Source of the DNA: Eubacteriales bacterium
GTDB taxonomy: Bacteria > Bacillota > Clostridia > Oscillospirales > CAG-272
DNA length: 42,709 bases
Direction: 5' to 3'
Assembly (NCBI GenBank): GCA_045649165.1
Contig: JAZRPI010000122.1
Coordinates: 1 to 42,709, forward strand
Shown here: in pieces, positions 1 to 40,665 of the stretch
Position numbering within the stretch: position 1 is the stretch's first letter
Layout: every line of letters begins with the position of its first letter
Notes under the pieces: model-generated
Told to the model about the DNA's origin: nothing
What the model saw: only the letters and a program-made list of their open reading frames with translations
The model's database searches: none
Translations under genes and position numbers: made by a program

Positions 1-122
1 TTTTTTTTGCACAAAATTTGACAAAAATTGCCCTAAATTTGACAAAAACTGCCCTAAATTTGACAAAAAATGCCCTAAATTTGACAAAAAATGCCCTAAT
101 TTTTTAGATTTATATTGACAGT
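1..122. repeat. Left copy of the flanking direct repeat (truncated by the window start)
   Basis: Base-for-base identical to 40544..40665 when read by eye. The two copies diverge after ...tatattgacagt (123 ctaaac vs 40666 agttta). Confidence 0.95.
14..97. repeat. Four tandem 21-bp iterons AAATTTGACAAAAANTGCCCT
   Basis: TTTGAC recurs at 17, 38, 59 and 80 (exact 21-bp period). The units differ at one or two positions within bases 14-15 of the unit. Each unit contains TTGACA. Confidence 0.95.
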
Positions 123-143
123 CTAAACATAAAGCGGTAATCT
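115..143 (+). promoter_or_regulatory. Sigma70-like promoter, TTGACA-17 nt-TAATCT, with the -35 inside the repeat and the -10 outside it
   Basis: TTGACA at 115..120, a 17-nt spacer at 121..137, TAATCT at 138..143. The right-hand repeat copy has the same -35 but no -10 at the matching distance. Confidence 0.5.
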
Positions 144-149
144 TAAATT

Positions 150-296
150 AACTTATAAAAACGAAAATCGTAATGAAAAAAACGATTTTCACAAAGTTTA
201 GTAAGTTTAATTTGAATCCGCTTGATTAAACTTACTAGCAATAGTAGGGATAGCCCCGATAAACAAGCGGATAGTTTATCGGGGTTTGTTTTTTTT
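150..296 (+). ncRNA. Candidate structured RNA or leader: three hairpins ending in an intrinsic terminator
   Basis: Hairpin 1: 163..171 / 182..190 (9 bp, perfect). Hairpin 2: 199..211 / 225..237 (13 bp, perfect). Hairpin 3: 254..264 / 274..284 (11 bp, perfect) followed by a T-run. No ORF present. The start is inferred from the promoter, not mapped. Confidence 0.5.
254..296 (+). terminator. Rho-independent terminator
   Basis: Stem ccccgataaac / gtttatcgggg (11 bp), 9-nt loop, then tttgtttttttt. Confidence 0.8.
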
Positions 297-307
297 AGGA
301 GAACAAA

Positions 308-448
308 ATGCAAAAAATTATGCGTATCTACAAAAATGGGAAAAAGTACAAGAAAAGAATTCTGGTAGCTTTTACCAAAAGCGAAATCCTACAAGCCGTA
401 CTCATAGGACTAGCAGTAGGTTATGTAGTGATTCGAGCAATTGTATAG
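308..448 (+). CDS. Small protein (46 aa) with a basic N-terminus and a hydrophobic C-terminal helix
   Basis: ATG at 308, 7 nt after AGGAG. Translation is MQKIMRIYKNGKKYKKRILVAFTKSEILQAVLIGLAVGYVVIRAIV. Below the ORF-track length cutoff. Confidence 0.45.
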   Translation: MQKIMRIYKNGKKYKKRILVAFTKSEILQAVLIGLAVGYVVIRAIV

Positions 449-496
449 GCGAATAAGTAAAAGGCTTAACCAAGGGTTCAATTCCCTTGATCGCCC
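448..496 (+). other. tRNA 3'-half-like segment or acceptor/T-arm minihelix
   Basis: T-arm AAGGG-TTCAATT-CCCTT (472..488), followed by GATCGCC and C. The upstream GGCGAAT (448..454) pairs partly with GATCGCC. There is no D-arm and no anticodon arm. Confidence 0.4.
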
Positions 497-500
497 ATAA

Positions 501-519
501 GTTCAGGTGGCCACCGAAC
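501..519. promoter_or_regulatory. GC-rich palindrome gttcaGGTGGCCACCgaac
   Basis: Perfect 10-bp palindrome GGTGGCCACC with extended arms. It stands out in AT-rich DNA and lies just upstream of the RBS of the first early gene. Confidence 0.3.
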
Positions 520-542
520 TAATTTATTAATGGAGGTTCTGA

Positions 543-704
543 ATGGAGAAAGAACCAAAAAATGAATTATTAGAAATATGTACCTTGCTTAATCGTGGGT
601 ATGTAAATGGAACAACAACATATTGTGTTGTTTGGGCAGAAAAGAACGAAGATGAGTGGGTAATTAAAGTTAAACCACAACAGCGGGAGGTAAGCGATGA
701 GTAG
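543..704 (+). CDS. Hypothetical small early protein (53 aa)
   Basis: ATG at 543, 5 nt after GGAGG. The stop overlaps the start of the next gene (697). Confidence 0.5.
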   Translation: MEKEPKNELLEICTLLNRGYVNGTTTYCVVWAEKNEDEWVIKVKPQQREVSDE

Positions 705-1305
705 CTTATATGAAATTAGTTCTGACTTGGTGGCACTACAGGAATTAGTAGATAACCTTGTGGATGAAAACGGAGAACCTAGAGATCCAACTCCAGAAGA
801 ACAAGAGCAAATGAAATCATGGTTTGAATGTTCGATTGGAGAGTTTGACGGTAAATTTGACAATTACTGCAAATTCATCAAAAACCTTAAAATCTCTGCA
901 GAGAGCGTAGAAGCAGAAAGAAAGGCTCATAAAAACGAAATTGACCGCCTTTCTAAACGCTCTAAAGCATTGGAAAACAGAGCCAAAACAGTTCAGAACC
1001 TTTTGTGGTTCTGTATGCAACGCTTAGGGTTGAAAAAATACAAAACAAACTTGTTTACCGCGAATGAACAAAACACACAAATTCAAATTGAACAGTTGGC
1101 AGGAACTACACTAGATGCAATCCCTGAAAGATTTCTAAAGCCTAGAGAGTTAGACACTTCTGCAATTAAAGATGCAATTAAAAGTGGAGAACTCAAACAA
1201 GGTGATGGCACACCACTCGGGGCGACAAAATTATTCTTTGTAAAAAACAACAAAGAATTAGAAAACATTAGATGGCACCAGGGAACAGCCCTAGTGTTGA
1301 GATAG
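697..1305 (+). CDS. Coiled-coil early protein, possibly Gp157-like (recombination-module accessory)
   Basis: 202 aa, directly upstream of SSB and Erf. Family resemblance is from memory only, with no diagnostic motif. Confidence 0.4.
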   Translation: MSSLYEISSDLVALQELVDNLVDENGEPRDPTPEEQEQMKSWFECSIGEFDGKFDNYCKFIKNLKISAESVEAERKAHKNEIDRLSKRSKALENRAKTVQNLLWFCMQRLGLKKYKTNLFTANEQNTQIQIEQLAGTTLDAIPERFLKPRELDTSAIKDAIKSGELKQGDGTPLGATKLFFVKNNKELENIRWHQGTALVLR

Positions 1306-1313
1306 GAGTAAAT

Positions 1314-1697
1314 ATGACAGATTTAAACAAAGTTACTTTGATTGGTCGTTTGACTAAAGATATAGATGTGGGCTACACACAGAACGGTGCGGCAATTGGG
1401 AAATTTTCACTCGCAGTTAACAGAAGCAGAAATGGGGCAAACGGGAAAGTAGATGAAGTGTCTTATTTCAACTGTAAAATCTTTGGAAAATTGGCAGAAA
1501 CAATGAAGCCATATTTGCTCAAAGGAAAGCAAATAGGAATAACAGGATACTTAAAACAGGAACGATGGGAAAAGGACGGGCAATCCCAAAGTATGGTCAC
1601 AGTTGGTGTTAAAGAGATTGAACTTCTTGGTAAAAAGGAAAATCAATCAGAAAGCAACGGATATGGCGGATATGACGCTTATGGATACGGGGAATAA
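1314..1697 (+). CDS. ssb: Single-stranded DNA-binding protein
   Basis: MTDLNKVTLIGRLTKD... OB-fold SSB-type N-terminus with a Gly/Tyr-rich tail. ATG at 1314 follows TAGGAG. The longer ORF-track start at 1272 has no RBS. Confidence 0.8.
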   Translation: MTDLNKVTLIGRLTKDIDVGYTQNGAAIGKFSLAVNRSRNGANGKVDEVSYFNCKIFGKLAETMKPYLLKGKQIGITGYLKQERWEKDGQSQSMVTVGVKEIELLGKKENQSESNGYGGYDAYGYGE

Positions 1698-1699
1698 GT

Positions 1700-2386
1700 A
1701 TGAGACAGAGTGAATCAATTAATACCTTACTTAAGTCATTAACAATGGCACAGAGCCAATATCCAACACTGCCTAAAGACAAAAAAGGATACGGTTATAA
1801 CTATACCGATCTAGACACAGTTATAACAACAATAAAGCCAATTTTTGAAAAAAATAAACTTGGCTTTATTCAAAGTCTTACAACACTAGAAAACGGAAAA
1901 AATGGGATAACAACTAGAATATTTAGCGTAGAAGGTGAATGGATTGAAGACACTATTGCACTTCCAGATGTAGCAATGGCCAAAACCAATGCGGCACAAA
2001 ATCTAGGGGCTTCAATTACCTATATGCGAAGGTATGCTTTGTGTTCAATGTTGGGAATAAGTTCTGATGAAGATGTGGATGCTACCACTACAACGGAAAC
2101 ACAATCTAAACAAACACCATCTAAACAAACACAATCTCAAACACCACAAAAGAAAAATACACCTATCAAAATAAAAGGCGGTCCTGACACACCAGACCAA
2201 ACAAAAATAATAAATGAACTTCTTAAGACTGAAATAAACGGAATTAAAGTATTCAGTCCAGAAGAAATCAAACAGGTTGCTAGTTGGCGATTGGAATACA
2301 CTGCAGATGAAGTTATAGCAACACTTTCAGAAGAAGTTGCTAAAAGAACTGCAATCCAGCCAGAAGTTCCAAACAAAATATTTTAG
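1700..2386 (+). CDS. ERF-family single-strand annealing recombinase
   Basis: YGYNYTDLDTV... and GASITYMRRYALCSMLGISSDEDVD match the conserved ERF core. Sits next to SSB. Confidence 0.75.
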   Translation: MRQSESINTLLKSLTMAQSQYPTLPKDKKGYGYNYTDLDTVITTIKPIFEKNKLGFIQSLTTLENGKNGITTRIFSVEGEWIEDTIALPDVAMAKTNAAQNLGASITYMRRYALCSMLGISSDEDVDATTTTETQSKQTPSKQTQSQTPQKKNTPIKIKGGPDTPDQTKIINELLKTEINGIKVFSPEEIKQVASWRLEYTADEVIATLSEEVAKRTAIQPEVPNKIF

Positions 2387-2395
2387 GAGGTAAAA

Positions 2396-2827
2396 ATGGC
2401 AGAAATAACTTTGACTTTAAAAAGAGTTTTTCAAAAAGGTTTAATCAGTTTTCAAATCCCCACAGAGGCTGTCCTTAGAGAAAACTTAGTCAAAGTTATA
2501 TCTGCCTGTCGTGATAAACACAATGATTATTGCACAATCACGATAAGAACACCAAGAAAGCCACGGACCACAGGGTATAAAAGCCAAAATCATCACCTTA
2601 ATGGTCATATAGTGCAGATATGCAATGAAACGGGTAACTCTTATGCCACTATTAAGAGTTACATCAAATTAGTAGCTGTAGAACAATTCGGCTACCCATA
2701 CGAAATATTCAAAGGCAAATTAATACCTAAAGCAGAAAGTGACTGCGACACAGAAGAATGTGCAATGTTGATTGAAGCTTCACACTATGTAGCGGCAACA
2801 GAAGGTATTTGTTTGCGGGAGGAATAA
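2396..2827 (+). CDS. Hypothetical early protein
   Basis: 143-aa ORF with an AGGAGG RBS. No recognisable motif. Confidence 0.6.
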   Translation: MAEITLTLKRVFQKGLISFQIPTEAVLRENLVKVISACRDKHNDYCTITIRTPRKPRTTGYKSQNHHLNGHIVQICNETGNSYATIKSYIKLVAVEQFGYPYEIFKGKLIPKAESDCDTEECAMLIEASHYVAATEGICLREE

Positions 2828-3187
2828 ATGAATACTTTGGAAAAATGGAAACCAATAACCACATATAAAAGCTGGATTTTTGACGGAAAATACGAAATTT
2901 CTAATTGGGGAAACATTCGCAATGTTGAAACAAAACAACCACTTGCAACTTTTAGCACTTGTCAGGGACAAGGATATCTAAAAACTCGCATATACGATAA
3001 AGAGAAAAAAAGAAGAGTTCTATATCTTCACCGATTAGTAGCAATGTACTTTGTAGGTGCAGAAGAACCAGGACTCGAAGTAAATCACAAAGATGGAAAT
3101 GTACGCAATAACAGTTACATCAACCTAGAATGGATTAGTCATAAGGCTAATGTTCAACACTATCACAATGGGAGAAAGGCTGTATGA
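2828..3187 (+). CDS. HNH homing-type endonuclease (NUMOD4 + HNH_3)
   Basis: WKPI...YEISNWGNIRN (NUMOD4-like) and EVNHKDGNVRNNSYINLEWISHKAN (HNH core). Confidence 0.85.
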   Translation: MNTLEKWKPITTYKSWIFDGKYEISNWGNIRNVETKQPLATFSTCQGQGYLKTRIYDKEKKRRVLYLHRLVAMYFVGAEEPGLEVNHKDGNVRNNSYINLEWISHKANVQHYHNGRKAV

Positions 3188-4077
3188 ACTTGTTTGACTT
3201 TCCACAATACCAGATAAAAAACAAAATTAGATTAATAGAACTATTCGCAGGTGTTGGAAGTCAAGCAATGGCACTTAGAGATATAGGTGCAGACTTCGAA
3301 CATTGGCGAGTGTGTGAATTTGACAAATATGCAATTGCAAGTTACAACGCAATCCACAATACGAACTTTGAACCAAGCGATATAACAAAATTGAAAGGTT
3401 CAGACTTGGGGATAACAGACACAGACCAATACACCTACTTAATGACCTATTCATTCCCTTGTCAAGATTTGAGCCTGGCAGGAAAACAAAAAGGAATGAA
3501 AAAAGGAAGCTCCACAAGAAGTGGTTTACTTTGGGAAGTAGAGCGATTGTTGAACGAGACAGAGAATCTGCCGCAGATTCTCTTAATGGAAAATGTGCCA
3601 CAGGTTCACGCAGAAAAGAATATGCCTGATTTTCAAAAGTGGTTGGAGTTTTTAAGAAGTAAAGGCTATCACAATTTTTATCAAGATTTAAATGCCAAAG
3701 ACTACGGAGTGCCACAAAATAGAGAAAGATGTTTTTGTGTATCAATTTTAAGTCCTGAATATGTTGAGTACGAGTTCCCTACTCCAATAAAACTAACAAA
3801 AGTTATGAAGGATTTACTAGAACCAGAAGTCGATGATAAGTATTACATCAACACACCTAAAGCAAAAGAACTTATAGAAAAGTTGATTGTGGAAAATAAG
3901 TTATCAGATGAAAAAACAACTGCATACATGAATTATAACTTTGTGGATAAGGTTGATACAGAATGTGCAAAAACCTTGTGTGCAGATTATAAAGGTTTTG
4001 GAACAGGGTTTGACACTATGAACGGAGTGATTGAACCATCTGAAAAGCAAGGGGGGGGGGGCAACCAATCTTTATGA
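3184..4077 (+). CDS. DNA cytosine-5 methyltransferase, N-terminal part (motifs I-VIII plus part of the variable region)
   Basis: IELFAGVGS (I), SFPCQDLS (IV), LMENVPQ (VI), QNRERCFCVS (VIII). Ends just after a G11 tract. Confidence 0.9.
   Translation: MNLFDFPQYQIKNKIRLIELFAGVGSQAMALRDIGADFEHWRVCEFDKYAIASYNAIHNTNFEPSDITKLKGSDLGITDTDQYTYLMTYSFPCQDLSLAGKQKGMKKGSSTRSGLLWEVERLLNETENLPQILLMENVPQVHAEKNMPDFQKWLEFLRSKGYHNFYQDLNAKDYGVPQNRERCFCVSILSPEYVEYEFPTPIKLTKVMKDLLEPEVDDKYYINTPKAKELIEKLIVENKLSDEKTTAYMNYNFVDKVDTECAKTLCADYKGFGTGFDTMNGVIEPSEKQGGGGNQSL
4051..4061. repeat. Homopolymeric G11 tract
   Basis: Eleven consecutive G, encoding GGGG, 14 nt before the stop of the first methyltransferase ORF. 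Confidence 0.95.
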
Positions 4078-4099
4078 AAAACATGATTGACAAAACAAA

Positions 4100-4996
4100 G
4101 TGGCAATGAGAGGCAGAAACCCAGAGAACCCATCCGACAGAACACCAGGAATACATACCGAACAACGGCTAGAGCCAAATTCAGAAGGTATCTGTAATAC
4201 CTTAACAACAGTACAGAAGGATAACTTAGTGTTAGAAGAAACAATCAAAATAAAACAAGCGACAAAACAAGGATATGCAGAATGTAAAGTTGGTGGAGTT
4301 GCTGATTTTTCATTTCCGAATAGTAAAACAAGACGTGGCAGAGTTGAACAAAACGGGGATGTTTCACCAACATTAATGGCAGGGAATAGTGAAATTGTAA
4401 AAATTGAAAAAGTAGGACAAATAAGTAACGAAGGTTCTCAATGTGGAACAGTAGTATCTACGAATGGGTTATATCCAACTATATCAGCAGGGTGTCATGG
4501 TTATGCTAATCCGCATATTTTAGAAAAAAATACAGATGTAATTATATACGATGATTACAACTCTAATGTTCCCGAAAATCAGGATTGTATCGGAACACTA
4601 ACAACTAATATAGGGAGTTCAACAATAAGAAACGGAATTAAACTAGTCGAAAAAAATAATTTTTACGAACAAGCAATAAAAACCGCAGAAGAAAACAATG
4701 CACAAGAAGGTGATATTGTAGACGCTTTTAATCGCAAAGTGTTGAAAGAAGGAATATCTCCTACAGTTACCACAAGACCAGAAGGAAAGAAAACAGCAAT
4801 ACTTCCTGTTGTTGAAAAATACAGGATTAGAAAACTAACACCTAAAGAATGTTGGCGATTAATGGGCTTTACAGATGAAGACTTTGAAAAAGCTGCAATT
4901 GTAAATAGCAATTCACAATTATACAAACAAGCAGGAAATTCCATTGTAAAAAATGTATTAATGGCAATTTTTAACAAAATGGTGGTGACAGCATGA
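4100..4996 (+). CDS. DNA cytosine-5 methyltransferase, C-terminal part (long target-recognition region plus motifs IX-X)
   Basis: RKLTPKECWRLMGF (IX) and YKQAGNSIV (X) at the C-terminus. Start is either GTG 4100 or ATG 4106. Confidence 0.85.
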   Translation: MAMRGRNPENPSDRTPGIHTEQRLEPNSEGICNTLTTVQKDNLVLEETIKIKQATKQGYAECKVGGVADFSFPNSKTRRGRVEQNGDVSPTLMAGNSEIVKIEKVGQISNEGSQCGTVVSTNGLYPTISAGCHGYANPHILEKNTDVIIYDDYNSNVPENQDCIGTLTTNIGSSTIRNGIKLVEKNNFYEQAIKTAEENNAQEGDIVDAFNRKVLKEGISPTVTTRPEGKKTAILPVVEKYRIRKLTPKECWRLMGFTDEDFEKAAIVNSNSQLYKQAGNSIVKNVLMAIFNKMVVTA

Positions 4997-5280
4997 CAGA
5001 AGCAGAAGAAAAACAAAGAAAAGAAGCAATGGCAAGTTGTGGTTATTTTTGCGAAGTATGCGGAAAAAATCTAACCTTTGCAAATATGCAAGGTGCTCAC
5101 AGAATCGCCAATACAAAAGCCAACAGAAAAAAATGGGGAGATTTTGTTATTGATCACCCATTGAACATAGCAATTGTGTGTAGCTTACCGTGTAACGATA
5201 AATGCAACATCGGAAATAACCCTGGGAAATGTTTTGAATTGATTGAAAAAATAATCCAAAGAGAAAAGAAGAGGTTCTGA
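4993..5280 (+). CDS. Cys-rich zinc-ribbon protein, possibly HNH-like
   Basis: CEVCG ... AHRI ... HPLNIAIVCSLPCNDKC. The spacing recalls HNH, but this is weak. Confidence 0.3.
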   Translation: MTEAEEKQRKEAMASCGYFCEVCGKNLTFANMQGAHRIANTKANRKKWGDFVIDHPLNIAIVCSLPCNDKCNIGNNPGKCFELIEKIIQREKKRF

Positions 5281-5281
5281 C

Positions 5282-5785
5282 ATGAAAAAAGCATACTTCC
5301 AATATTATGAAACATTTGAAAACTTGGTGCAGAAATTCAAAACTGCAGAAGAAAGGGAAAAATTCAGAGGTTACATTATTAATTATGGCTTACACGGGGA
5401 AGAACCTGCAGAAGAACTATCTGAAGCAATGACAATCGGATTTGAAGTAGTCAAAGAATTAATCGATGACCAAATCCACAGAAGAGAAATCAATCGAGCA
5501 AATCGAGAAAAGAAAAAAATAAAAACAGAAAACTCTGGAAAAGAACCAGAACCAAAAGAAGAAACAAAAAAGTTTAAAAAACCAACAACAGAAGAAGTTC
5601 AAGAATATTGTCAGGAACGAAAAAATAATGTGGATGCAACACAATTTATTAACTTCTATGAGTCAAAAGGTTGGAAAATTGGAAATCAATCAATGAAAGA
5701 TTGGAAAGCAGCTGTTAGAACTTGGGAGCAAAGAAGTCAAGTTCCAAACACTCCAAAATTAAAAGCGGAACATTTGACATTTTAA
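5282..5785 (+). CDS. Putative replication initiator or replisome organiser (DnaD-like C-terminal motif)
   Basis: FINFYESKGWKIGNQSMKDWKAAVRTWEQR resembles the DnaD/phage replisome-organiser C-terminus. Lies upstream of the DnaC-like loader. Confidence 0.5.
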   Translation: MKKAYFQYYETFENLVQKFKTAEEREKFRGYIINYGLHGEEPAEELSEAMTIGFEVVKELIDDQIHRREINRANREKKKIKTENSGKEPEPKEETKKFKKPTTEEVQEYCQERKNNVDATQFINFYESKGWKIGNQSMKDWKAAVRTWEQRSQVPNTPKLKAEHLTF

Positions 5786-5800
5786 TGGGAGGAAAAATTG

Positions 5801-6172
5801 ATGATATCAATTAAAAAGATTTGTGAAGAATATTATTCTCTGCTCGGAGAAGAGAATATCCGACGCTCGATAAAACAAGCGGGGTTCAAAATTGAAAAAA
5901 TAAACGACCTTCAACATATAAGTTTAAGTGATTATGAAAAATTGAAATATTATTTGTCTAAAACAAACGGTGTGTTGATTAAAAATCAAAAAATTGAAGA
6001 CAAATGTCAAATGTTAGACCCTGACAGAGAAGCAAGAAAAAAATTGTTTATGGAAAAATACGGACCACACACAGAAAAATGGTTTGACCCAAAGTGGTGG
6101 CCTAGCTATGAAGACATAACACCTTCAATCTTTATTGGATTAGAAGATGACCAGGAGGAAGACATTGCTTAG
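5801..6172 (+). CDS. Hypothetical protein
   Basis: ATG at 5801 after GGGAGG. No recognisable motif. Confidence 0.6.
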   Translation: MISIKKICEEYYSLLGEENIRRSIKQAGFKIEKINDLQHISLSDYEKLKYYLSKTNGVLIKNQKIEDKCQMLDPDREARKKLFMEKYGPHTEKWFDPKWWPSYEDITPSIFIGLEDDQEEDIA

Positions 6173-20463: not shown

Positions 20464-20464
20464 T

Positions 20465-33105: not shown

Positions 33106-33116
33106 AAATGACTATA
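33106..33116 (+). promoter_or_regulatory. A-tract+GACTATA motif, copy (5 nt from the ATG)
   Basis: aaaaaaaaatGACTATAggggtATG. Confidence 0.55.
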
Positions 33117-33121
33117 GGGGT

Positions 33122-34287: not shown

Positions 34288-34967
34288 TGACAACACCTAG
34301 TGTATATAACGGGTTATCGTTTACGGAAAAAGATTTGATTGAATCAATTGTGAGTAATTTCTACTTTGTAGATTATGGATTTGTTTCTGCGGTAAACGGG
34401 GATAAAACCGTAAATGTAACCCACGCTAAATTTTTAACATCTGCAACAGGGGAGCAATTGGAAGCAACTATAACTAAAAATATAGAAGTTCTTACATTTG
34501 CGACAAAAGGAATTTCAATAAACTTTGAAATTAAACAAGGTGATAAAGTCTTGTTATTAGGTTTAAAAAACAGAGTTGAAAAAACACAAGATGTGACAAT
34601 TGCAACGCAACAGAATACACCTATTCATTATTGTAGAGACACAATAAAAGCAATTCCTTTTGGTGTTTTTGATTCTACTGCCAAAATACAAATTGATTTT
34701 ACAAAAGGAATAAATATTACATCTGATGAAGCAATTGTAATTAATGCCAACAAAAAAAATATAGAACTTAATGGAAATAAAAAAAGCTTTGTTACTTACG
34801 CGGAATTAAATCAAGCTTTACAAAGTTTATGGGCTGCGATAAAAGCACATACACACCCCGTATCAACGCCTGCAGGTGCTGGAAGTTCTTCAGCTTCTGT
34901 AGAGTTACAAACACAATCATTAGATATTTCAGCAAGTGAAACAAAGACTATAAAGACAGGTGGTTAA
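34287..34967 (+). CDS. Baseplate central spike (gpV/gp45-like, putative)
   Basis: Position, plus a C-terminal KAHTHPVS His-x-His motif as found at spike apexes. Confidence 0.45.
   Translation: MTTPSVYNGLSFTEKDLIESIVSNFYFVDYGFVSAVNGDKTVNVTHAKFLTSATGEQLEATITKNIEVLTFATKGISINFEIKQGDKVLLLGLKNRVEKTQDVTIATQQNTPIHYCRDTIKAIPFGVFDSTAKIQIDFTKGINITSDEAIVINANKKNIELNGNKKSFVTYAELNQALQSLWAAIKAHTHPVSTPAGAGSSSASVELQTQSLDISASETKTIKTGG
34942..34952 (+). promoter_or_regulatory. A-tract+GACTATA motif copy inside the end of the spike gene
   Basis: caaaGACTATAaag, 18 nt upstream of ATG 34971 (AGGTGG RBS). Confidence 0.35.
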
Positions 34968-34970
34968 TTT

Positions 34971-35294
34971 ATGGATATGAAAATGAAAGCAGAAGATATA
35001 TCTACTAGTGGTAATAGCTGGGATTGTAAGGTGGTAAATGGAATAGTGCCTTTGATTTCAGGCGATGAAGAAAATCTACAAAATGCAATTCTTGCGGGAT
35101 TTTTGATAAAAGGCACTATCCCATTATTGCCAGATGCAGGTGTTCCGTGGCCTGACTTTTTGACAAAAAAAATAACCTTCGGAGATTTAGATTATTTTGT
35201 GAGAGAAAGTCTTATACAAGTAGGAAGAGAAGACTATAACCCACAATATGACATACAGGAAGATATGCTAGTTATGACAATGAGTAAGATATAG
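34971..35294 (+). CDS. Small baseplate protein (gpW/XkdS-like position)
   Basis: 107 aa, upstream of the baseplate J-like gene. Confidence 0.4.
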   Translation: MDMKMKAEDISTSGNSWDCKVVNGIVPLISGDEENLQNAILAGFLIKGTIPLLPDAGVPWPDFLTKKITFGDLDYFVRESLIQVGREDYNPQYDIQEDMLVMTMSKI

Positions 35295-35307
35295 GAGTGA
35301 AAAAAAA

Positions 35308-36789
35308 ATGAGTTTTGAAATTAACGGTGAAACATGGCAGCCACAAGGTGCTAACAGTCATGCTGAAAGCATCATGGCGAAAATTAACCAAATTCTACAA
35401 GAAAATGATATCCGAGATAATAACGGAGAACTTATTCAATTAACACCAAACTATGCCAACGCATTGTATTTATTGGCATTGGGAGATGGGGAAAGACTTC
35501 AAACCCACGACCAAGAATTGTCACAGGCTATTAATAGCTTTAACATTGAATTATGCGATGATCAACAAATCGAAAACTTGTTACCAATTGCAGCCATTAG
35601 CAGAAATCCAGGAAGTTATTCAACACTAAGATTAGCAGTAACTTCTACACCTGATGGAACTTGTACAATTCCCGCAGGAACTACTATCACATACAATGAT
35701 GTGCAATTCGTTGTACAAAATGAAGTAATTCTAACACCTGGAACAACACAGATTATAACAACCGTATGTAATACAATAGGTCCTGTAGTTGTACTTACGG
35801 GAGAAATTAACGCATTTGACTCACCAATAGCAAATCTTGAAAGTGTTGAAAACTTTGAAAGTTCAATCCCAGGAGTAGCCCCAGAAACTACTAACCAATT
35901 AAGACAGCGCCTATTGAAAGGTGATGTAATCAAGTATTCGCTTGAAGGGTGCAAAAAAGCATTGGAAGAATTAACGGGGGTTACATACGCTAGAATTTAT
36001 TTTAATTACAACATAAATGAAACTATAACATTAGACGGTGGAGTGGTCCTGCAACCAAGAACTGCATACATTGTTATTTACGGTTCGTCAGACAAAATTG
36101 CAGATACATACGCAACATATATGAATATGCCTACCCAAAATTCACCTATTGCAACAGGAAGCCCTTCTATTGTTACTGTATCAGTTACAGCCACAACAAA
36201 TGGGAGTGCAGTTATTCCAATTGGAACTACTGCTACTTATGAAGGTTATACATTTGAAACACAAGAAGAATACACAATCCCTGCAGGTGGAAATGCTACA
36301 GTTCAATTAGTCTGTACAGAGACAGGACCAATTAATGTGCCTGTGGGTGGAATTACAGAATTCAATCAAACAATTACAAATCTATTGAAGGTTGAACAAT
36401 TTACAACAGCAATACCAGGATATGACAATCCTGCACAGTCGCAAGATTGGGTAACTTCATCAGGACAGATAATCCCAATTAAATATGATTTAGCAACGCA
36501 GAAAAATGTATTTATTAAAGTTGTTCTTGCAAAAGGAGCTGACTACTCACAGGAAACGCAAAATCAGTTAAAAAAAGATTTAATCAAAGCAAGTGCATCG
36601 TGGGAGCTAGGTTCAGAAGTTACATCTTTGTTAGCAGGTTCGTCAATCGTAAATGTAACTTACACAGAGGTGCTTTATTGCAAGGTGTCAGAAGATGGGG
36701 AAACTTGGAGTGATAATATTAATCTTGGGTGCAATGTTGTAGCCAGAGTATTAGATAGTACAATCAGTATCGTGCAGAGCGAGGCATAA
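35308..36789 (+). CDS. Baseplate J-like protein with an internally duplicated domain
   Basis: Two similar segments: TPDGTCTIPAGTTITYNDVQF...VCNTIGPV...INAF and TTNGSAVIPIGTTATYEGYTF...VCTETGPINV...ITEF. Confidence 0.6.
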   Translation: MSFEINGETWQPQGANSHAESIMAKINQILQENDIRDNNGELIQLTPNYANALYLLALGDGERLQTHDQELSQAINSFNIELCDDQQIENLLPIAAISRNPGSYSTLRLAVTSTPDGTCTIPAGTTITYNDVQFVVQNEVILTPGTTQIITTVCNTIGPVVVLTGEINAFDSPIANLESVENFESSIPGVAPETTNQLRQRLLKGDVIKYSLEGCKKALEELTGVTYARIYFNYNINETITLDGGVVLQPRTAYIVIYGSSDKIADTYATYMNMPTQNSPIATGSPSIVTVSVTATTNGSAVIPIGTTATYEGYTFETQEEYTIPAGGNATVQLVCTETGPINVPVGGITEFNQTITNLLKVEQFTTAIPGYDNPAQSQDWVTSSGQIIPIKYDLATQKNVFIKVVLAKGADYSQETQNQLKKDLIKASASWELGSEVTSLLAGSSIVNVTYTEVLYCKVSEDGETWSDNINLGCNVVARVLDSTISIVQSEA

Positions 36790-36791
36790 AA

Positions 36792-37367
36792 ATGATTAAA
36801 CAAAACAAAAACTACCCAAAACAAATGAATGGCCCCGTAATTTCTGCTTTTGGAAATGCTGTTGATTCAGAATTAAAAAAAGCACAATTTATTGAAGATT
36901 ATCTGTACGGGCTATCAATTAGAACCGCACAGGAAACTGAACTAGATAACATTGGACGAATTATCGGTTATTTGCGACCGCTAGTGCCGCAAGGCTTCAA
37001 CACAGAAAACCTTTTTATCTTTGGAAATCTGCCAATGATTCAAGAGCCAACAAATGGGTTCTCAACAATTAATTCTACAATTGGTGGAAAGTTGTCTAGT
37101 ATCTATTCTGGAGAAACAGGGTTCATGCCGAACGACTTATACAAGCAATTGTTGACACAAATTGCGTATCTTAAAAGGTACGGAATTACACTGTCTAGTG
37201 TGGATAAAATCTGCTCGGTAATTGATAAGAATTTCACAATAGAATGGGATGATAACCAAGATATTGTGGTAACTTTTAATACAAGTATTGGATATAAAAA
37301 CTTGTGGATTTTGACAAGAATTTTTTATTCTGTGGCAACATCTCCACAGGTATTAATTTATTCTTAA
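36792..37367 (+). CDS. Baseplate/tail protein (gpI/XkdU-like position)
   Basis: Called from position only. Confidence 0.4.
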   Translation: MIKQNKNYPKQMNGPVISAFGNAVDSELKKAQFIEDYLYGLSIRTAQETELDNIGRIIGYLRPLVPQGFNTENLFIFGNLPMIQEPTNGFSTINSTIGGKLSSIYSGETGFMPNDLYKQLLTQIAYLKRYGITLSSVDKICSVIDKNFTIEWDDNQDIVVTFNTSIGYKNLWILTRIFYSVATSPQVLIYS

Positions 37368-37381
37368 GGAGAGATAGGAAT

Positions 37382-38407
37382 ATGATACAAAATCAAATAT
37401 TCGAAGGATTCCCAATATTTGGGGATAATTCTTCTATGAGTCAACCAGAAGCTGCAATATACGCTAATGGGTTTGCGCCTGCTGATGTATTGCCAGCAGA
37501 ATATTATAATTGGCTTACATATAAAGCAAGTAAAGGAATAACAGACCTAAACAAAGGTGTTGTTTCAATGGAAGCCGAATTAAACAATGTTGTGTCTGCA
37601 GGAGGCCAAGAGCCAAGCGAAAATACAAACAATCAAATTATAACAGCAATTCGTTATTTGATTAATCAGGCAAAAGCAGAAGCTATACTAGCAGCACACC
37701 CTATAGGTTCTTTGTATTGGAGCAGTAAAGATATAAACCCAAGTACACTGTTCGGTGGAACATGGACCCCAATCAAAGACAAATTTGTTCTTGCAGCAGG
37801 TGATACCTACGCTAACGGTGCAACAGGTGGAGCTGCAACAGTAACATTAACAACACAGCAGATACCTAGCCACTCACATACAGGCCCAAACCATACTCAT
37901 ACAGGCCCAAACCATACCCACTCTTTTACACCAAGCGGAAGTGTTTCTGCTCACTCACACGGATTAAATAATCATACGCATAGTTTTACACCTAGTGGAA
38001 GTGTTACATCAACATTCAAAGGAACTGCCGCAAGTGGAAGTGTTAATGTAGAAACAGGTTATAATCCTTCTGCGTCGGGGGTTTTTTCAAGTACAGATTT
38101 ATCAAATAAAAATGTAGGAGATGACTCTGGATCATATCACGACCAATATACACTTAATTTTAATATGACACCTAGTGGAAGTGTTACATCAACATTCAAA
38201 GGAACATCAGGAACAACAGGCGGAAGCACTGCTAATACAGCCAATGCCACTCCTTCATTCACGGGAACAGCAGGAACAACGGGAGCAGCAGGAACAGGTA
38301 ACACAGGTGCAAGTGGAACAGGTGCAACGGGAACAGCAGGCGGAGGAACAGCACATAACAATATGCCACCTTATGTTGTTAAATACTGTTGGGAAAGAAC
38401 TGCATAA
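37382..38407 (+). CDS. Tail fibre with His-x-His repeats and a C-terminal collar-type motif
   Basis: SHSHTGPNHTHTGPNHTHSF...AHSHGLNNHTHSF. Gly/Thr-rich repeats. C-terminal AHNNMPPYVVKYCW. ATG at 37382 after AAGGAG. Confidence 0.75.
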   Translation: MIQNQIFEGFPIFGDNSSMSQPEAAIYANGFAPADVLPAEYYNWLTYKASKGITDLNKGVVSMEAELNNVVSAGGQEPSENTNNQIITAIRYLINQAKAEAILAAHPIGSLYWSSKDINPSTLFGGTWTPIKDKFVLAAGDTYANGATGGAATVTLTTQQIPSHSHTGPNHTHTGPNHTHSFTPSGSVSAHSHGLNNHTHSFTPSGSVTSTFKGTAASGSVNVETGYNPSASGVFSSTDLSNKNVGDDSGSYHDQYTLNFNMTPSGSVTSTFKGTSGTTGGSTANTANATPSFTGTAGTTGAAGTGNTGASGTGATGTAGGGTAHNNMPPYVVKYCWERTA

Positions 38408-38416
38408 ATGACTATA
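38406..38416 (+). promoter_or_regulatory. A-tract+GACTATA motif copy
   Basis: taaatGACTATATAAT after the fibre stop codon. ATG at 38433 with a GGAGG RBS. Confidence 0.4.
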
Positions 38417-38432
38417 TAATTGGAGGCAAAAT

Positions 38433-38702
38433 ATGATTGTTAAAATTAAAAGAGTTGACGGGGCAAATGAATTCTTTCAGACAGGTTCATTTGTTGTGAG
38501 TAAAGCAAAGGATATGCATCCTGCAATTTTGGAAGTTGAAGTAATGACAGACCAAGGGAATCGGCTTGAACGATGGGTTCGTCCTTTTCAGGCAATTTAC
38601 AAAAAATTCAAATACAAGCCTGTAGAAGTAACAAATGATGTAGAAGATGCAGAAAAAGCTTGTACAGAAATTGTATGCGAGGCTTCAAAAAAAGAAGAAT
38701 AG
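38433..38702 (+). CDS. Hypothetical protein (tail fibre chaperone position)
   Basis: 89 aa, directly after the fibre gene. Confidence 0.4.
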   Translation: MIVKIKRVDGANEFFQTGSFVVSKAKDMHPAILEVEVMTDQGNRLERWVRPFQAIYKKFKYKPVEVTNDVEDAEKACTEIVCEASKKEE

Positions 38703-38708
38703 ATTTAT

Positions 38709-38750
38709 AAAAGGTCTTGGAGAAATCTAAGGCCTTTTATTTTTTTATTG
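38709..38750 (+). terminator. Rho-independent terminator at the end of the late operon
   Basis: aaaaggtc / ggcctttt stem (one G-U pair) followed by atttttttt. Confidence 0.6.
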
Positions 38751-38815
38751 ACGATTGGAAAAAATCAATATTAATTTTTTTGTATGCTTTATACAAAAAA
38801 GGAGACACATATAAG

Positions 38816-39070
38816 ATGTGTACAAAATCGCCATCGGTGGCATATTACAACCAAAAAATAAGAACCACCAAAAAATCACAATTACTCATAGAATGGGCAG
38901 ACGCGCCACTCACCGAAAAAGAGAAAAGTTTTTTATTAGATGTATTAGAAAAACTTCCGTTGAAAGAATTATCTAGCAAATATTGTATGACAGACAGCGG
39001 AATATCGAAATACAAACGGCGAATTTTTGAAAAATTGCACCAATTTGATATGTTCCAGATACGAAAATAA
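38816..39070 (+). CDS. Small HTH regulator (LuxR/GerE or sigma region 4-like)
   Basis: LTEKEKSFLLDVLEKLPLKELSSKYCMTDSGISKYKRRIFEKL. ATG at 38816 after AAGGAG. Confidence 0.55.
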   Translation: MCTKSPSVAYYNQKIRTTKKSQLLIEWADAPLTEKEKSFLLDVLEKLPLKELSSKYCMTDSGISKYKRRIFEKLHQFDMFQIRK

Positions 39071-39090
39071 GAAAAAAATAAATAAAATAT

Positions 39091-39153
39091 TTCGTTAATT
39101 TCGTTAATTTCGTATTTTTCGTTTATTTCGTATTTTTTGTTTATTTCGTGGTT
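39091..39153. repeat. Seven tandem 9-bp repeats TTCGTWWWT
   Basis: TTCGT (once TTTGT) at 39091, 39100, 39109, 39118, 39127, 39136 and 39145. Confidence 0.9.
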
Positions 39154-39155
39154 CT

Positions 39156-39205
39156 GAAATGAAATGAAGAGAAATGAATAGAAATGAATAGAATAGAAAT
39201 GAATA
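39156..39205. repeat. Ten tandem pentamers GAAAT/GAATA (10-bp GAAATGAATA super-period)
   Basis: GAAAT GAAAT GAAGA GAAAT GAATA GAAAT GAATA GAATA GAAAT GAATA. Confidence 0.9.
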
Positions 39206-39208
39206 TTT

Positions 39209-39240
39209 AAAAAGGGGAATGAATCCCCTTTTTCTTTTTT
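39209..39240. terminator. Bidirectional terminator (A-run, stem, T-run)
   Basis: aaaaagggga-atgaa-tccccttttt. Lies immediately downstream of the transposase stop codon. Confidence 0.7.
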
Positions 39241-40504
39241 ATGCGCTGATTTCTTTGGCATACGAAAATAAATACCTGTAAATAATATTTTCAAGGACTG
39301 TAGAAATAGTTTCACCCAGCCCGTCCATAATGTAAGGGTCTAGGCATACAACAGGGAAATATTCACCGTCAATATTTGCCAAAAATCCACGCTCTGAAAT
39401 ACAAATGTCGAATTTTCTGTAACATAGATTTTTAACTTTTGTATCAATTGCAAACTTATACCCGTGGAAAGAAAATCCTCCAGCTTTGTCGGTGGTTCTT
39501 TGAATTCGGCATTGCAGAATATCGTCAAGATTAGAAGGACAGTCTAGCCAGAATGTATCATCATCGGCAGGTGTAACAGAATAGGAATTATTGAATTCAC
39601 AAATATATTTATTAAGAATCTGATTAGCTTTGTCGATACTATTAGCACCGTGTAATTTGAGCCACACAGGAAGCTGCCCTTGGATTGTTCGCCACATTCT
39701 CTCAACTCGTCCCTTTGCTTCGGGAGACCATGCCAGAATTTGTTTAATACAAAGTTCTGACAACATACGCTGCCATTGGGTGCGCTCTTCGTGTAGAACT
39801 TCCAATTGTTCCCATTTTGCTAATTTTTTATGGCCTTTTTTAGATTTTGGAGTTACGCAAAAAATCGCGGCACGGTCGCTGTAAATTTCTCTAGGGATAC
39901 CGTAATGCTGGGCTGTTTGGCGCAAGATTTCCATGTAGCCAAATAAACATTCGTTTTCAGTCATATACAGCCCTGTAATCTTTCCTGTTGCATCGTCGAT
40001 AGAACCGCAGAGACAATAGCGTTTCTCATCGCCAAATTTATAAAACCAAGCAAACGGAGTGCCGTCAATTTGAATTAAATCGCCTTCATTGGCTCGTCTT
40101 ATTCTTGGACGGTGGACTTGTTTCTTTTGCTTTTTGTGGTGAGCTTCGGGCGAAGTCTGGCCATATTCTGCAAGGATAGTGCGTAGTGTTGGATAACTGA
40201 TTTTTATATTTTTTTCAGATTCTAAATATTTTTGAAAATATGAAAAGTTGACATCGACAAAATCGGCAGCATAAGTAGCTGCGATTAATTGGCGAGTTGC
40301 AGAAGAAATCCTGTTGAGTGCAGGCTTACCCTTGCTTTTGTGTTCCAGACACAAAAGACCTTCTGCAAGATATCGTTTTTTTAATGCACACAAATATTCA
40401 GGTGTGTAGCCTGTACTTTCTGCTGCCTGTTTCAGCGTATACTTGCCTGTTGCAAGTCCCCGTAGATAGGCTGGTAACAGCCCTTTATTTTTGAATTTTC
40501 TCAT
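39239..40504 (-). CDS. DDE transposase/integrase with an rve-type catalytic core and N-terminal HTH
   Basis: LIQIDGTPF (D), IYSDRAAIF (D), SPEAKGRVERMWRTIQ (E). The N-terminus is HTH-like. ATG at 40504 chosen because the longer ORF merely translates the iterons. Confidence 0.85.
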   Translation of the reverse strand: MRKFKNKGLLPAYLRGLATGKYTLKQAAESTGYTPEYLCALKKRYLAEGLLCLEHKSKGKPALNRISSATRQLIAATYAADFVDVNFSYFQKYLESEKNIKISYPTLRTILAEYGQTSPEAHHKKQKKQVHRPRIRRANEGDLIQIDGTPFAWFYKFGDEKRYCLCGSIDDATGKITGLYMTENECLFGYMEILRQTAQHYGIPREIYSDRAAIFCVTPKSKKGHKKLAKWEQLEVLHEERTQWQRMLSELCIKQILAWSPEAKGRVERMWRTIQGQLPVWLKLHGANSIDKANQILNKYICEFNNSYSVTPADDDTFWLDCPSNLDDILQCRIQRTTDKAGGFSFHGYKFAIDTKVKNLCYRKFDICISERGFLANIDGEYFPVVCLDPYIMDGLGETISTVLENIIYRYLFSYAKEISA

Positions 40505-40543
40505 GTTTATAATATACGGAGCGGTTCTGTTAAAAACTTTAGT

Positions 40544-40665
40544 TTTTTTTTGCACAAAATTTGACAAAAATTGCCCTAAATTTGACAAAAACTGCCCTAA
40601 ATTTGACAAAAAATGCCCTAAATTTGACAAAAAATGCCCTAATTTTTTAGATTTATATTGACAGT
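40544..40665. repeat. Right copy of the flanking direct repeat; overlaps the region upstream of the transposase gene
   Basis: Identical to 1..122. Lies 40 bp upstream (minus-strand sense) of the transposase ATG at 40504. Confidence 0.95.
40557..40640. repeat. Second copy of the four 21-bp iterons
   Basis: Same array as 14..97, offset by 40543 bp. Confidence 0.95.

What the first reader, a model, noticed from the sequence alone, without database searches (positions are those of the whole stretch)
1..40665. Prophage framed by perfect direct repeats of at least 122 bp, built from four 21-bp iterons, with a DDE transposase in place of a classical integrase
Seen directly: 1..122 and 40544..40665 are identical. 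Each copy carries four tandem 21-bp units, AAATTTGACAAAAANTGCCCT. The right copy lies immediately upstream of an rve-type DDE transposase gene (39239..40504, minus strand). Past the repeats the sequences differ: phage-side DNA at 123, and a host terminator plus exporter gene at 40666. I found no tyrosine or serine recombinase and no excisionase in the 40 kb. Arrays of transposase-binding sites of about 20 bp at element ends are known for Mu, Tn7 and Tn552, but there the two ends are inverted. Here they are direct, and I saw no inverted copy of the site anywhere in the window. Two readings fit. (a) The repeat is the recombination substrate (att-like) of a DDE enzyme that integrates a phage, which would be unusual. 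(b) The phage carries or abuts an IS, and a second full copy of that IS sits just left of the window, for example after homologous recombination between IS copies. The window edge prevents a decision.
Basis: partly seen in the sequence, partly recalled or inferred. Interest (0 to 1): 0.75.

Follow-up and report, generated by a model that had tools for sequence, protein, structure and literature searches.

The report
Transposase-integrating phage caught at its end-to-end junction
The two 122-bp "direct repeats" are not attachment sites: the left one is the phage's right end joined head-to-tail to its left end (a circle or tandem junction), and the real finding is a family of about 40-kb Treponema gut phages that integrate with an IS1202-type DDE transposase instead of an integrase.

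Summary
Window 1..122 equals 40544..40665, each copy holds four 21-bp units, and the right copy lies upstream of a DDE transposase gene.

The att-like reading fails. In at least 27 related contigs the right end (...TTGACA), one variable nucleotide and the left end (TCT/TGT...) are contiguous, exactly as at window 120/121/122. Window 1..121 is therefore the phage's right end abutted to its left end. That means a circle junction or a head-to-tail tandem, cut by the contig edge.

One relative could be read at both ends, in a 364-kb Treponema MAG contig. It has no end-repeat at its left junction. Instead it has a 16-25-bp target duplication.

The transposase belongs to the IS1202/ISNCY family (TnsB/IstA-like). 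It is a conserved terminal gene of many 40-43-kb phage contigs and is not an autonomous IS.

Two further points are inferred, not shown. The terminal TTGACA sits exactly 17 nt upstream of a TAnnnT hexamer in the left end in 26 of 27 junctions, so an early promoter appears to be assembled only when the ends are joined. Downstream lies a conserved leader RNA with covarying kissing loops.

Overall this is a new variant of known kinds.

The parts
1..120 (+). Second copy of the last 120 nt of the phage right end. It holds four 21-bp units (14-97) and the terminal TTGACA (115-120). It is abutted to the left end and truncated by the window edge.
   Evidence: Identical to 40544-40663. The same right end is contiguous with the left end in relatives L001, L005, L006, L098, L099.
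121..121 (.). Single junction (spacer) nucleotide, G.
   Evidence: This position is G, T or A in near-identical phages whose flanks are otherwise the same: window G; L005, L006, L008, L099 T; L098, L001 A. It is also variable in other sub-lineages: L016 G against L020 A; L041 C against L025 T.
122..157 (+). Phage left end: terminus TCTAAACATAAAGCGG, the -10-like hexamer TAATCT (138-143), and the conserved AATTAACTT box.
   Evidence: L010 carries unrelated DNA directly left of the homologous TCTAGATATAAAGCGG. Left ends are homologous across the family. Identity to the inverted right terminus is 16/30, in the top ~0.5% of background.
115..143 (+). Candidate junction-assembled promoter: -35 TTGACA (right end), 17 nt (1 spacer nt plus 16 nt of left end), then -10 TAATCT (left end). 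It points into the early genes.
   Evidence: TAnnnT lies exactly 17 nt after the terminal TTGACA in 26 of 27 end-to-end junctions and in 0 of 9 host junctions. This is inference; no transcription data exist.
150..297 (+). Structured early leader with three hairpins. The last hairpin (254-284) plus a U-run (285-296) forms an intrinsic terminator just before the first RBS. The loop at 216-223 (AUCCGCUU) is complementary to the terminator loop at 265-273 (AAGCGGAUA).
   Evidence: MFE -43.2 kcal/mol, z = -6.2. Loop-loop complementarity of 7-10 nt is kept in at least 18 of 26 relatives, with 15 different sequences. No Rfam family matches.
308..39070 (+). Phage genes: Gp157-like, SSB, Erf, HNH, C5 methyltransferases, DnaC/IstB-like ATPase, RecU, ParB-methyltransferase, terminase, portal, protease, capsid, tail, baseplate.
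   Evidence: Pfam and PHROGs scans.
39209..39233 (.). Bidirectional intrinsic terminator between the late genes and the transposase gene.
39239..40504 (-). IS1202/ISNCY-family DDE transposase (421 aa; D147, D210, E268, and Q275 at E+7). It acts as the phage's integrase.
   Evidence: NF033594 at 282.6 bits against a cut-off of 250. Invariant DDE and Q residues in alignment A1. Foldseek top hits are IstA, TnsB and MuA. 783 homologues, many on 40-43-kb contigs.
40505..40543 (-). Transposase 5' region and probable promoter (the CTAAAGTTTTT...CCGTATATTAT motif is conserved in relatives).
   Evidence: Sequence comparison of upstream regions. Inference.
40544..40663 (+). Phage right end in its integrated context: four 21-bp units (40557-40640), each with TTGACA, and the terminal ...TTGACA (40658-40663), which is 5'-TGTCAA on the transposase strand.
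   Evidence: TGTCAA(G/T/C) is conserved at this place in all relatives.
40664..40722 (.). Host flank with the terminator hairpin of the exporter gene (40678-40706). The first 16-25 nt (GTAGTTTAAAAAACAA...) are the predicted target duplication.
   Evidence: The duplication length is inferred from relative L003/L083 and from the IS1202-family range (PMC10132070).
40723..42709 (-). Host MMPL/RND-type exporter gene, 3' part. It runs off the window.
   Evidence: Pfam MMPL and NCBIfam HAE3/HpnN-like hits.

Best explanation
The window holds one 40,542-bp temperate tailed phage (122..40663). It is integrated just downstream of a host exporter gene, and its left end is preceded by the last 120 nt of its own right end plus one nucleotide.

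That arrangement is the end-to-end junction this phage family forms whenever the genome is circular or in head-to-tail tandem. The left 'repeat' therefore comes from one of two sources, which the window cannot separate:
- an excised or replicating circle whose reads were assembled onto the prophage, or
- a second prophage copy lying to the left.

Integration is done by the IS1202-family (TnsB/IstA-like) DDE transposase encoded 39-160 nt inside the right end. The steps below are inferred by analogy with this enzyme class:
1. The enzyme binds the terminal TGTCAA and the four phased 21-bp units, each of which repeats TGTCAA. This resembles the TnsB and IstA multi-site ends.
2. It pairs that end with the divergent left end.
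3. It cuts at ...ACA-3' and 5'-T(C/G)T.
4. It inserts the genome with a long staggered target cut. This gives a 16-25-bp duplication, seen in one relative.

Excision re-joins the ends with a single nucleotide between them.

A further inference is that joining puts the terminal TTGACA 17 nt upstream of a TAnnnT hexamer in the left end. The early promoter would then exist only in the circular or tandem state and would be taken apart by integration.
For: - Junction: a synthetic join of window 40665 to 123 aligns without a break to L005 and L006 (95.5% over 2954 bp) and to L001 (83%). The junction was read directly.
- Circular relatives: IMG/VR contigs of relatives have k-mer terminal overlaps of 81 and 127 nt.
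- Spacer: a single position varies between otherwise identical flanks.
- Left junctions without the repeat: L083, a Treponema MAG prophage of 41,976 bp, has host | 16-25-bp duplication | TGTAAAAC... and shares no 15-mer with the right end. L010 is a second candidate.
- Different insertion loci in relatives: after rho (twice, at different distances), after azlD, and others.
- One phage with an identical transposase is seen both as a circle and integrated.
- Transposase family: NF033594 above its cut-off; Q at E+7 and the DDE triad invariant, which is the family signature in PMC10132070; predicted two HTH bundles, a catalytic core and a beta-barrel; Foldseek hits to IstA, TnsB and MuA.
- No other recombinase was found.
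- No second IS terminus next to the gene.
- Promoter geometry: 26 of 27 junctions against 0 of 9 host flanks.
Against: - The DNA left of position 1 is unknown, so circle-derived assembly and true tandem cannot be separated. A 122-nt overlap does not match a common assembler k.
- Only one relative gave both junctions. There the duplication length is ambiguous (16 to 25 bp), because 8 nt of host DNA equal the phage left terminus.
- The window's left terminus is TCT, not the family's TGT.
- The ends share only weak inverted similarity (16/30).
- No full 21-bp unit occurs at the left end, so how the left end is recognised is open.
- Transposase binding, cleavage sites, promoter activity and the temperate life cycle are all untested.
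- The catalytic core of the structure model is of low confidence (mean pLDDT 64).
Confidence: 0.78

Rival explanations
1. Reader's reading (a). The 122-bp blocks are attL and attR of a single prophage: a long shared core duplicated by DDE-mediated recombination between the phage and an identical host site.
For: The two copies are identical and bracket exactly one phage unit. No classical integrase is present.
Against: - The left copy is followed by phage DNA in the same way as in circular genomes.
- A host site would have to hold four transposase-type iterons.
- The relative with both junctions has no such block at its left border.
- Relatives sit at unrelated loci.
Confidence: 0.04
2. Reader's reading (b). 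The transposase plus iterons form an autonomous IS that the phage carries or abuts, with a second IS copy left of the window.
For: The enzyme belongs to an IS family. Identity probably does continue leftwards.
Against: - There is no inverted terminus between the late-gene terminator and the 3' end of the gene (18/30, within background).
- The gene sits at the same terminal position in dozens of 40-43-kb phage contigs with diverged sequence.
- The outer boundary of the element's end coincides with the phage-host border.
Confidence: 0.06
3. The four 21-bp units are mainly something other than transposase sites, for example origin iterons, a partition site or operators of the early or transposase promoters. 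Their position at the end would then be incidental.
For: - Direct repeats spaced at two helical turns are typical of Rep, ParB or repressor arrays.
- Each unit carries a -35-like TTGACA.
- One unit forms a promoter-like site reading outwards (TTGACA, 18 nt, TAGATT).
- No inverted copy exists at the left end.
Against: - The unit repeats the terminal TGTCAA motif.
- Relatives have different short phased repeats at exactly the same place, between the terminus and the transposase promoter.
- Multi-site ends are the rule for TnsB, IstA, MuA and IS1202 elements (PMC10132070).
- The roles are not mutually exclusive.
Confidence: 0.12
4. Mu-like transposable phage that replicates by transposition and is never circular.
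For: PHROGs matches to Mu-type transposase families. A DnaC/IstB-like ATPase at 6147-6881. Mu F-like head gene.
Against: - End-to-end junctions and circular assemblies are common.
- The phage has its own SSB, Erf, helicase-loader and RecU module.
- The duplication is 16-25 bp, not 5 bp.
- The ATPase scores far below the IstB cut-off (57 against 200 bits).
Confidence: 0.05

Closest known systems
IS1202 family insertion sequences (ISNCY group; e.g. ISTde1 of Treponema denticola, IS1202, ISAjo2; Harmer, Pong & Hall 2023, PMC10132070)
   Same: - Transposase family hit above the curated cut-off.
- DDE triad with Q at E+7.
- HTH-HTH-DDE-beta-barrel architecture.
- ...ACA-3' end.
- Extra internal copies of the terminal motif.
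- Unusually long target duplication (16-28 bp class; ISTde1 gives 17 bp).
   Different: - The mobile unit is a 40.5-kb tailed phage, not a 1.3-1.7-kb IS.
- The left terminus in this window is TCT.
- The ends are strongly asymmetric (five TGTCAA sites on the right, none on the left).
- A 1-nt end-to-end junction is documented here, whereas no circle or tandem form is described for the family in that paper.
Reactive junctions and junction promoters of IS21, IS30, IS911/IS3 (own knowledge) and promoter reconstitution in circular IS110/IS1111 (PMC11187229 context)
   Same: - The ends are abutted with a very short spacer in a circle or tandem dimer.
- The -35 lies in one end and the -10 in the other at a 17-bp spacing.
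- IS21's IstA is the best structural match, and IS21 also has multiple terminal repeats.
   Different: - Here the assembled promoter points away from the transposase gene and into the phage early operon.
- There is no IstB-type helper next to the transposase.
- Promoter activity is untested.
Tn7 TnsB and phage Mu MuA end architecture
   Same: Arrays of about 20-bp direct transposase sites within each end, TG...CA termini, and the same protein fold class.
   Different: - No TnsA, TnsC or MuB partners were identified.
- A circular intermediate exists.
- The target duplication is long rather than 5 bp.
- Replication is not by transposition (inferred from the replication module).
ICEs that integrate with DDE transposases (TnGBS family; PMC3942029, PMC4701971)
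   Same: A large self-transmissible element that circularises and re-inserts with a DDE transposase instead of a site-specific recombinase, with relaxed intergenic target choice.
   Different: - The transposase superfamily differs (Mutator-like against TnsB/IS1202-like).
- The vehicle is a conjugative element, not a virus.
- Target rules and duplication length differ.
Vibrio filamentous prophages with a terminal transposase (PQ1893xx records; PMC11630473)
   Same: A homologous transposase (about 32% identity) sits 55 nt from the end of the deposited record of a prophage of quite another virus type.
   Different: These are 9-13-kb filamentous prophages, which the paper places at dif sites and attributes to Xer. 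The role of their transposase is not established.

Membership tests
IS1202 family (transposase) | Curated family model hit above cut-off | tested here: met
   NF033594 ISNCY family transposase at 282.6 bits against a cut-off of 250. The link between this model and the IS1202 group rests on the ISNCY naming and on the motif below.
IS1202 family (transposase) | DDE triad with Q (not K/R) seven residues after the E | tested here: met
   D147, D210, E268 and Q275 are invariant in 20 homologues. The criterion is from PMC10132070.
IS1202 family (transposase) | TnsB-like architecture: HTH1, HTH2, RNase H core, beta-barrel, C-terminal helix | tested here: inconclusive
   The model shows two helical bundles, a beta-barrel (332-387, pLDDT 81-87) and a C-terminal helix, but the core is of low confidence. 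Foldseek hits to IstA, TnsB and MuA have E-values of 1e-6 to 1e-2 but TM-scores of only about 0.3. A PDB sequence search found no hit.
IS1202 family (element) | Termini 5'-TGT ... ACA-3' with 24-26-bp imperfect inverted repeats | tested here: inconclusive
   The right end ...TTGACA-3' fits. The left end is TCT in the window and TGT in many relatives. Inverted identity is only 16/30.
IS1202 family (element) | Additional internal transposase-binding site(s) repeating part of the terminal repeat | tested here: met
   Four internal TGTCAA-containing 21-bp units lie at the right end. This is shown by sequence only; binding is not testable here. None is recognisable at the left end.
IS1202 family (element) | Target duplication of 3-5 bp, 16-28 bp, or none | tested here: met
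   A 16-25-bp duplication was found in the one relative with both junctions (L003/L083). It is not testable for the window itself, because the left host junction is absent.
IS1202 family (element) | Small IS (1.3-1.7 kb) carrying only the transposase | tested here: not met
   The unit bounded by the termini is 40,542 bp and encodes a complete phage. There is no second terminus beside the gene.
Site-specific (att x att) prophage integration | Identical core present once in attP and once in attB, hence at both prophage borders next to host DNA | tested here: not met
   The left copy is not shown to adjoin host DNA. The relative's left border lacks the block. Relatives occupy unrelated loci.
Site-specific (att x att) prophage integration | Tyrosine or serine recombinase (with or without excisionase) encoded by the phage | tested here: not met
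   None was found in Pfam or PHROGs scans of about 50 ORFs.
Mu-like transposable phages | No circular form; MuA plus MuB; 5-bp duplication | tested here: not met
   Circular assemblies and junctions exist. The duplication is 16-25 bp. The only AAA+ candidate is DnaC-like and far below the IstB cut-off.

The most novel reading that the evidence does not exclude
A family of gut Treponema phages has replaced both integrase and protein repressor with a transposon-style switch.
- An IS1202-type transposase inserts the circular genome at many sites.
- Insertion physically splits the early promoter: the -35 is the right terminus and the -10 lies in the left end.
- The prophage is therefore silent by construction, and excision rebuilds the promoter.
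- A leader RNA with phage-specific kissing loops sets termination, and perhaps immunity, downstream.

This would also give the first evidence of a 1-nt end-to-end junction intermediate for the IS1202 family.
Probability: 0.3. Interest if true: 0.8.

Novelty: new variant of a known kind. Interest (0 to 1): 0.6.

Why it matters
- Prophage finders and att-site callers look for integrases and flanking direct repeats. This family has neither, and it can produce misleading 'terminal repeats' when circle reads and prophage reads are assembled together.
- It links an obscure IS family, for which neither a mechanism nor a target is known for the long-duplication group, to a tractable substrate. That substrate has an observable junction, defined ends and many natural insertion sites.
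- If the split-promoter idea holds, it is a simple, repressor-independent way to couple lysogeny to the physical state of the genome.
- The phages appear widespread in animal and human gut Treponema, for which almost no phage biology exists.

Tried and rejected
- Exact look-ups of the window's Gp157-like protein and transposase: not on record, so the source contig could not be extended.
- Exact scans for two iteron units in IMG/VR and in GTDB genomes: 0 hits.
- Left-end motif in IMG/VR: 0 hits.
- Pairing transposase loci with Gp157 loci in IMG/VR by contig name: no shared contig, because Gp157 is not linked to the transposase outside the window's sub-lineage. Two Gp157 homologues on long contigs turned out to be tyrosine-integrase phages.
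- A scan for the 16-mer flanking L017, to find a second duplication copy: only one copy on that contig, and the other hits were random.
- Empty-site scan for the rho-rpmE target, and a left-end scan for the P0067 phage, in JGI metagenomes: 0 hits each.
- The last contig look-up used too short a flank to reach the left junction.
- L076 was tested as a possible stand-alone IS circle and rejected.
- Profile search against PDB sequences: no hit.
- Rfam: no family in the window.
- I checked by eye whether the leader loops match target DNA, as a guide-RNA idea. No convincing match was found in the three cases inspected, so I dropped it.
- I tried to explain the 122-nt length by an assembler k-mer. 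No standard k fits, so this is left open.

Full report
**1. Observation**

Window 1..122 and 40544..40665 are identical (read directly). Each copy carries four tandem 21-bp units, AAATTTGACAAAAANTGCCCT. There are 8 matches against 0.02 expected by chance, all on the + strand, and no inverted copy anywhere.

The right copy lies upstream of ORF 39239..40504(-). Beyond the copies the sequences differ. At 123 there is phage early DNA. At 40666 there is a hairpin (40678-40706) and an MMPL/RND-type gene on the minus strand. The repeat starts at the first base of the window, so its length is a lower bound set by the edge.

**2. What the 40 kb is**

It is a complete tailed phage.
- Early and replication genes: Gp157-like, SSB, Erf, HNH, C5 methyltransferases, a DnaC/IstB-like loader and RecU.
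- Later genes: a ParB-methyltransferase, terminase, portal, protease, capsid, tail and baseplate genes.
- All genes are on the + strand except the transposase and a T5orf172-domain gene.
- No tyrosine or serine recombinase, excisionase or repressor domain was found in about 50 ORFs.

**3. The enzyme**

- The 421-aa protein passes the curated cut-off of NCBIfam NF033594, ISNCY family transposase (282.6 against 250 bits). Its Pfam rve match is sub-threshold.
- In an alignment of 20 homologues, D147, D210 and E268 are invariant, and so is Q275, seven residues after the E. Harmer, Pong and Hall (PMC10132070) give this Q as the signature of the IS1202 family.
- That paper also describes 5'-TGT/ACA-3' termini, extra internal transposase sites, a TnsB-like architecture, and target duplications of 3-5 bp, 16-28 bp or none. 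ISTde1 of Treponema denticola gives 17 bp.
- Its best PDB matches are IstA of IS21, TnsB of CAST and Tn7, and MuA. Foldseek probabilities are high but TM-scores are only about 0.3.

**4. The enzyme is a phage gene, not a passenger IS**

- There are 783 homologues with E < 1e-10, and many sit on contigs of 40-43 kb.
- In IMG/VR and GTDB loci the gene always lies 75-215 nt inside a conserved terminus TGTCAA(G/T/C).
- The named hosts that make sense are Treponema or Treponemataceae MAGs.
- Beside the 3' end of the gene in the window there is only the late-operon terminator. The best inverted match to the right terminus there is 18/30, within background.

**5. What the left copy is**

In relatives the transposase, the repeat array and the early genes are contiguous.
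- These relatives are L001 (40,062-bp contig, 88% transposase identity), L005 (39,231 bp), L006, L098 and L099.
- A synthetic join of window 40665 to 123 aligns to L005 and L006 without interruption (95.5% over 2954 bp).
- Two IMG/VR relatives are circular assemblies, with terminal overlaps of 81 and 127 nt. In one of them the contig break lies within 50 nt of the junction.

The junction has a fixed anatomy: ...TTGACA, one nucleotide, then T(C/G)T...
- That one nucleotide differs between otherwise identical flanks. It is G in the window, T in L005/L006/L008/L099, and A in L098 and L001. Other sub-lineages show the same pattern.
- Window 1..120 is therefore the phage right end, 121 is the spacer and 122 is the first base of the left end.
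- The host base after the right end (G40664) equals the spacer, and the next host base (T40665) equals T122. This is why the identity runs to 122.

**6. Integrated relatives**

The one relative whose two borders could be read is a 41,976-bp prophage between rho and rpmE, in a 364-kb Treponema MAG contig.
- The right border reads ...TTGACA|CCTGGTAAAAGGCGGCTGTAAAAC-atccgc.
- The left border reads tatcaa|CCTGGTAAAAGGCGGC|TGTAAAACTTAAGGG...
- 25 nt are shared in total. Sixteen of them are unambiguous host duplication. The last 8 equal the phage's left terminus as judged from homologous left ends. No right-end sequence occurs at the left border.
- This fits the long-duplication class of the IS1202 family.

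Other evidence from integrated copies:
- A Logan contig of a close relative (L010) has 28 nt of unrelated DNA directly left of TCTAGATATAAAGCGG.
- Right borders of other relatives lie at unrelated places: after rho again but at another distance, after azlD, near a tRNA, and upstream of divergent genes.
- One phage with an identical transposase occurs both with joined ends and inserted after azlD.

**7. Consequence for the finding**

The 122-bp duplication is not an att-type repeat made by integration. It shows that the DNA to the left of the window's phage copy is the phage's own right end. Two sources fit, and the window cannot separate them:
- reads from excised or replicating circles were assembled onto the prophage, or
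- the lysogen carries a head-to-tail tandem, the phage-sized analogue of the (IS21)2 and (IS30)2 reactive junctions.

The 122-nt length does not match a usual assembler k.

**8. How it most likely works**

Shown:
- the family membership of the enzyme;
- its constant position at the end;
- the TGTCAA terminus and its four internal repeats at two-turn spacing;
- the 1-nt junction;
- varied insertion sites;
- a long duplication in one relative.

Inferred:
- The transposase binds the terminal site and the array, in the way TnsB, IstA and MuA use multi-site ends.
- It synapses this end with the divergent left end (16/30 inverted identity, top ~0.5% of background).
- It integrates the circular genome with a stagger of about 16 bp or more.

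**9. Two further features bear on mechanism**

*Junction promoter.* In 26 of 27 joined-end sequences, the hexamer exactly 17 nt after the terminal TTGACA is TAnnnT. It is TAATCT in the window, at 138-143. None of 9 host flanks has this hexamer there.
- The 16 intervening left-end bases are not conserved across the family, and the 1-nt spacer is what makes the spacing 17.
- This is the geometry of a sigma-70 promoter assembled only when the ends are joined, reading into the early genes.
- The simple consensus scan does not call it in the window, because TAATCT matches only 3 of 6 positions. Instead it calls an outward-reading TTGACA-18-TAGATT inside the right end.

*Leader RNA.* Between this site and the first ORF lies a 148-nt leader with three hairpins (z = -6.2).
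- The last hairpin is a terminator placed directly before the RBS.
- The apical loop of the middle hairpin is complementary to the apical loop of the terminator (AUCCGCUU and AAGCGGAU).
- At least 18 of 26 relatives keep a 7-10-nt loop-loop complement, using 15 different sequences.
- No Rfam family matches.
- With no repressor gene found, an RNA-based control of early transcription is a reasonable hypothesis, but it is untested.

**10. Unexplained**

Three of ten right flanks carry TGTAAAA 14-16 nt from the insertion point. That is where the left end is joined, and it is also the left terminus of many relatives. The target may mimic a pair of ends. The window's own flank does not show this.

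**11. Comparison and novelty**

- The enzyme is a member of the IS1202 family by sequence criteria.
- The element fails that family's definition as a small IS.
- It works like an IS that moves through an end-to-end junction (IS21, IS30, IS911), and like DDE-driven ICEs (TnGBS), but the cargo is a tailed phage with its own replication module.
- It is not Mu-like.
- Full-text searches found no description of tailed phages that use IS1202-type transposases as integrases. The library is incomplete, so this is not proof of absence.

I rate it a new variant of known kinds.

Noticed in passing
window 150-297: Conserved early leader RNA with three hairpins and a terminator directly before the first RBS. 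The loop of hairpin B (216-223) is complementary to the terminator loop (265-273). The pairing covaries across relatives (15 different loop sequences). No Rfam match.
   Followed up: partly
window 115-143 and the equivalent place in 27 related loci: The terminal TTGACA, 17 nt and TAnnnT form a promoter-like site only when the phage ends are joined. It is present in 26 of 27 junctions and absent from 9 host flanks.
   Followed up: partly
L003 9856-9879, L064, L066 (host flanks of the right end): TGTAAAA lies 14-16 nt from the insertion point in 3 of 10 flanks. It equals the left terminus of many relatives, so the target may mimic a phage end. This makes the duplication length in L003/L083 ambiguous (16-25 bp).
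   Followed up: partly
window 10493, 12649, 13441, 16244, 21227, 22434, 34944, 35230: The motif AAGACTATA occurs 8 times, all on the + strand (0.55 expected), mostly 10-25 nt upstream of gene starts. It is a candidate middle/late promoter or translation signal.
   Followed up: partly
window 3184-4996: The C5 cytosine methyltransferase is split into two adjacent ORFs. The first matches profile positions 2-239 and the second 227-322. A third, ParB-fused methyltransferase lies at 13455-14768.
   Followed up: no
window 32471-33334 (-): A T5orf172/MUG113-domain gene lies on the opposite strand inside the tail module. A shorter version sits at the same place in L005. It looks like a mobile nuclease-type insert.
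   Followed up: no
window 22775-22933: 9-nt tandem repeats encode an acidic E/T/V-rich stretch in ORF 22444-23202, between the protease and capsid genes.
   Followed up: no
window 39103-39233: A long hairpin rich in G-U pairs, built from TTTCGT-type and GAAATGAA-type repeats (z = -3.2), is followed by a strong bidirectional terminator (39209-39233) between the late genes and the transposase gene.
   Followed up: partly
window 13303-13380 (-): ARAGORN reports a 'tRNA-???' with a four-base anticodon. It overlaps the 3' end of ORF 12663-13322 on the opposite strand and is probably a false positive.
   Followed up: no
phage records PQ189311-PQ189386 (Vibrio cyclitrophicus prophages): A homologous transposase (about 32% identity) lies 55 nt from the end of the deposited records of 9-13-kb filamentous prophages. 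PMC11630473 places these at dif sites. This recalls the dif targeting of IS1202-family members.
   Followed up: partly
L011, L012 against L021, L040, L083: The Gp157/SSB early module also occurs in phages with a tyrosine integrase and an S24 repressor. Many transposase-bearing relatives lack that module. The integration function therefore appears to be exchanged as a module.
   Followed up: no
L107-L110 (phage with transposase P0067): A PF00239 resolvase/invertase gene lies about 1 kb from the transposase, next to tail genes. It is probably a tail-fibre invertase rather than an integrase. It is absent from the window.
   Followed up: no
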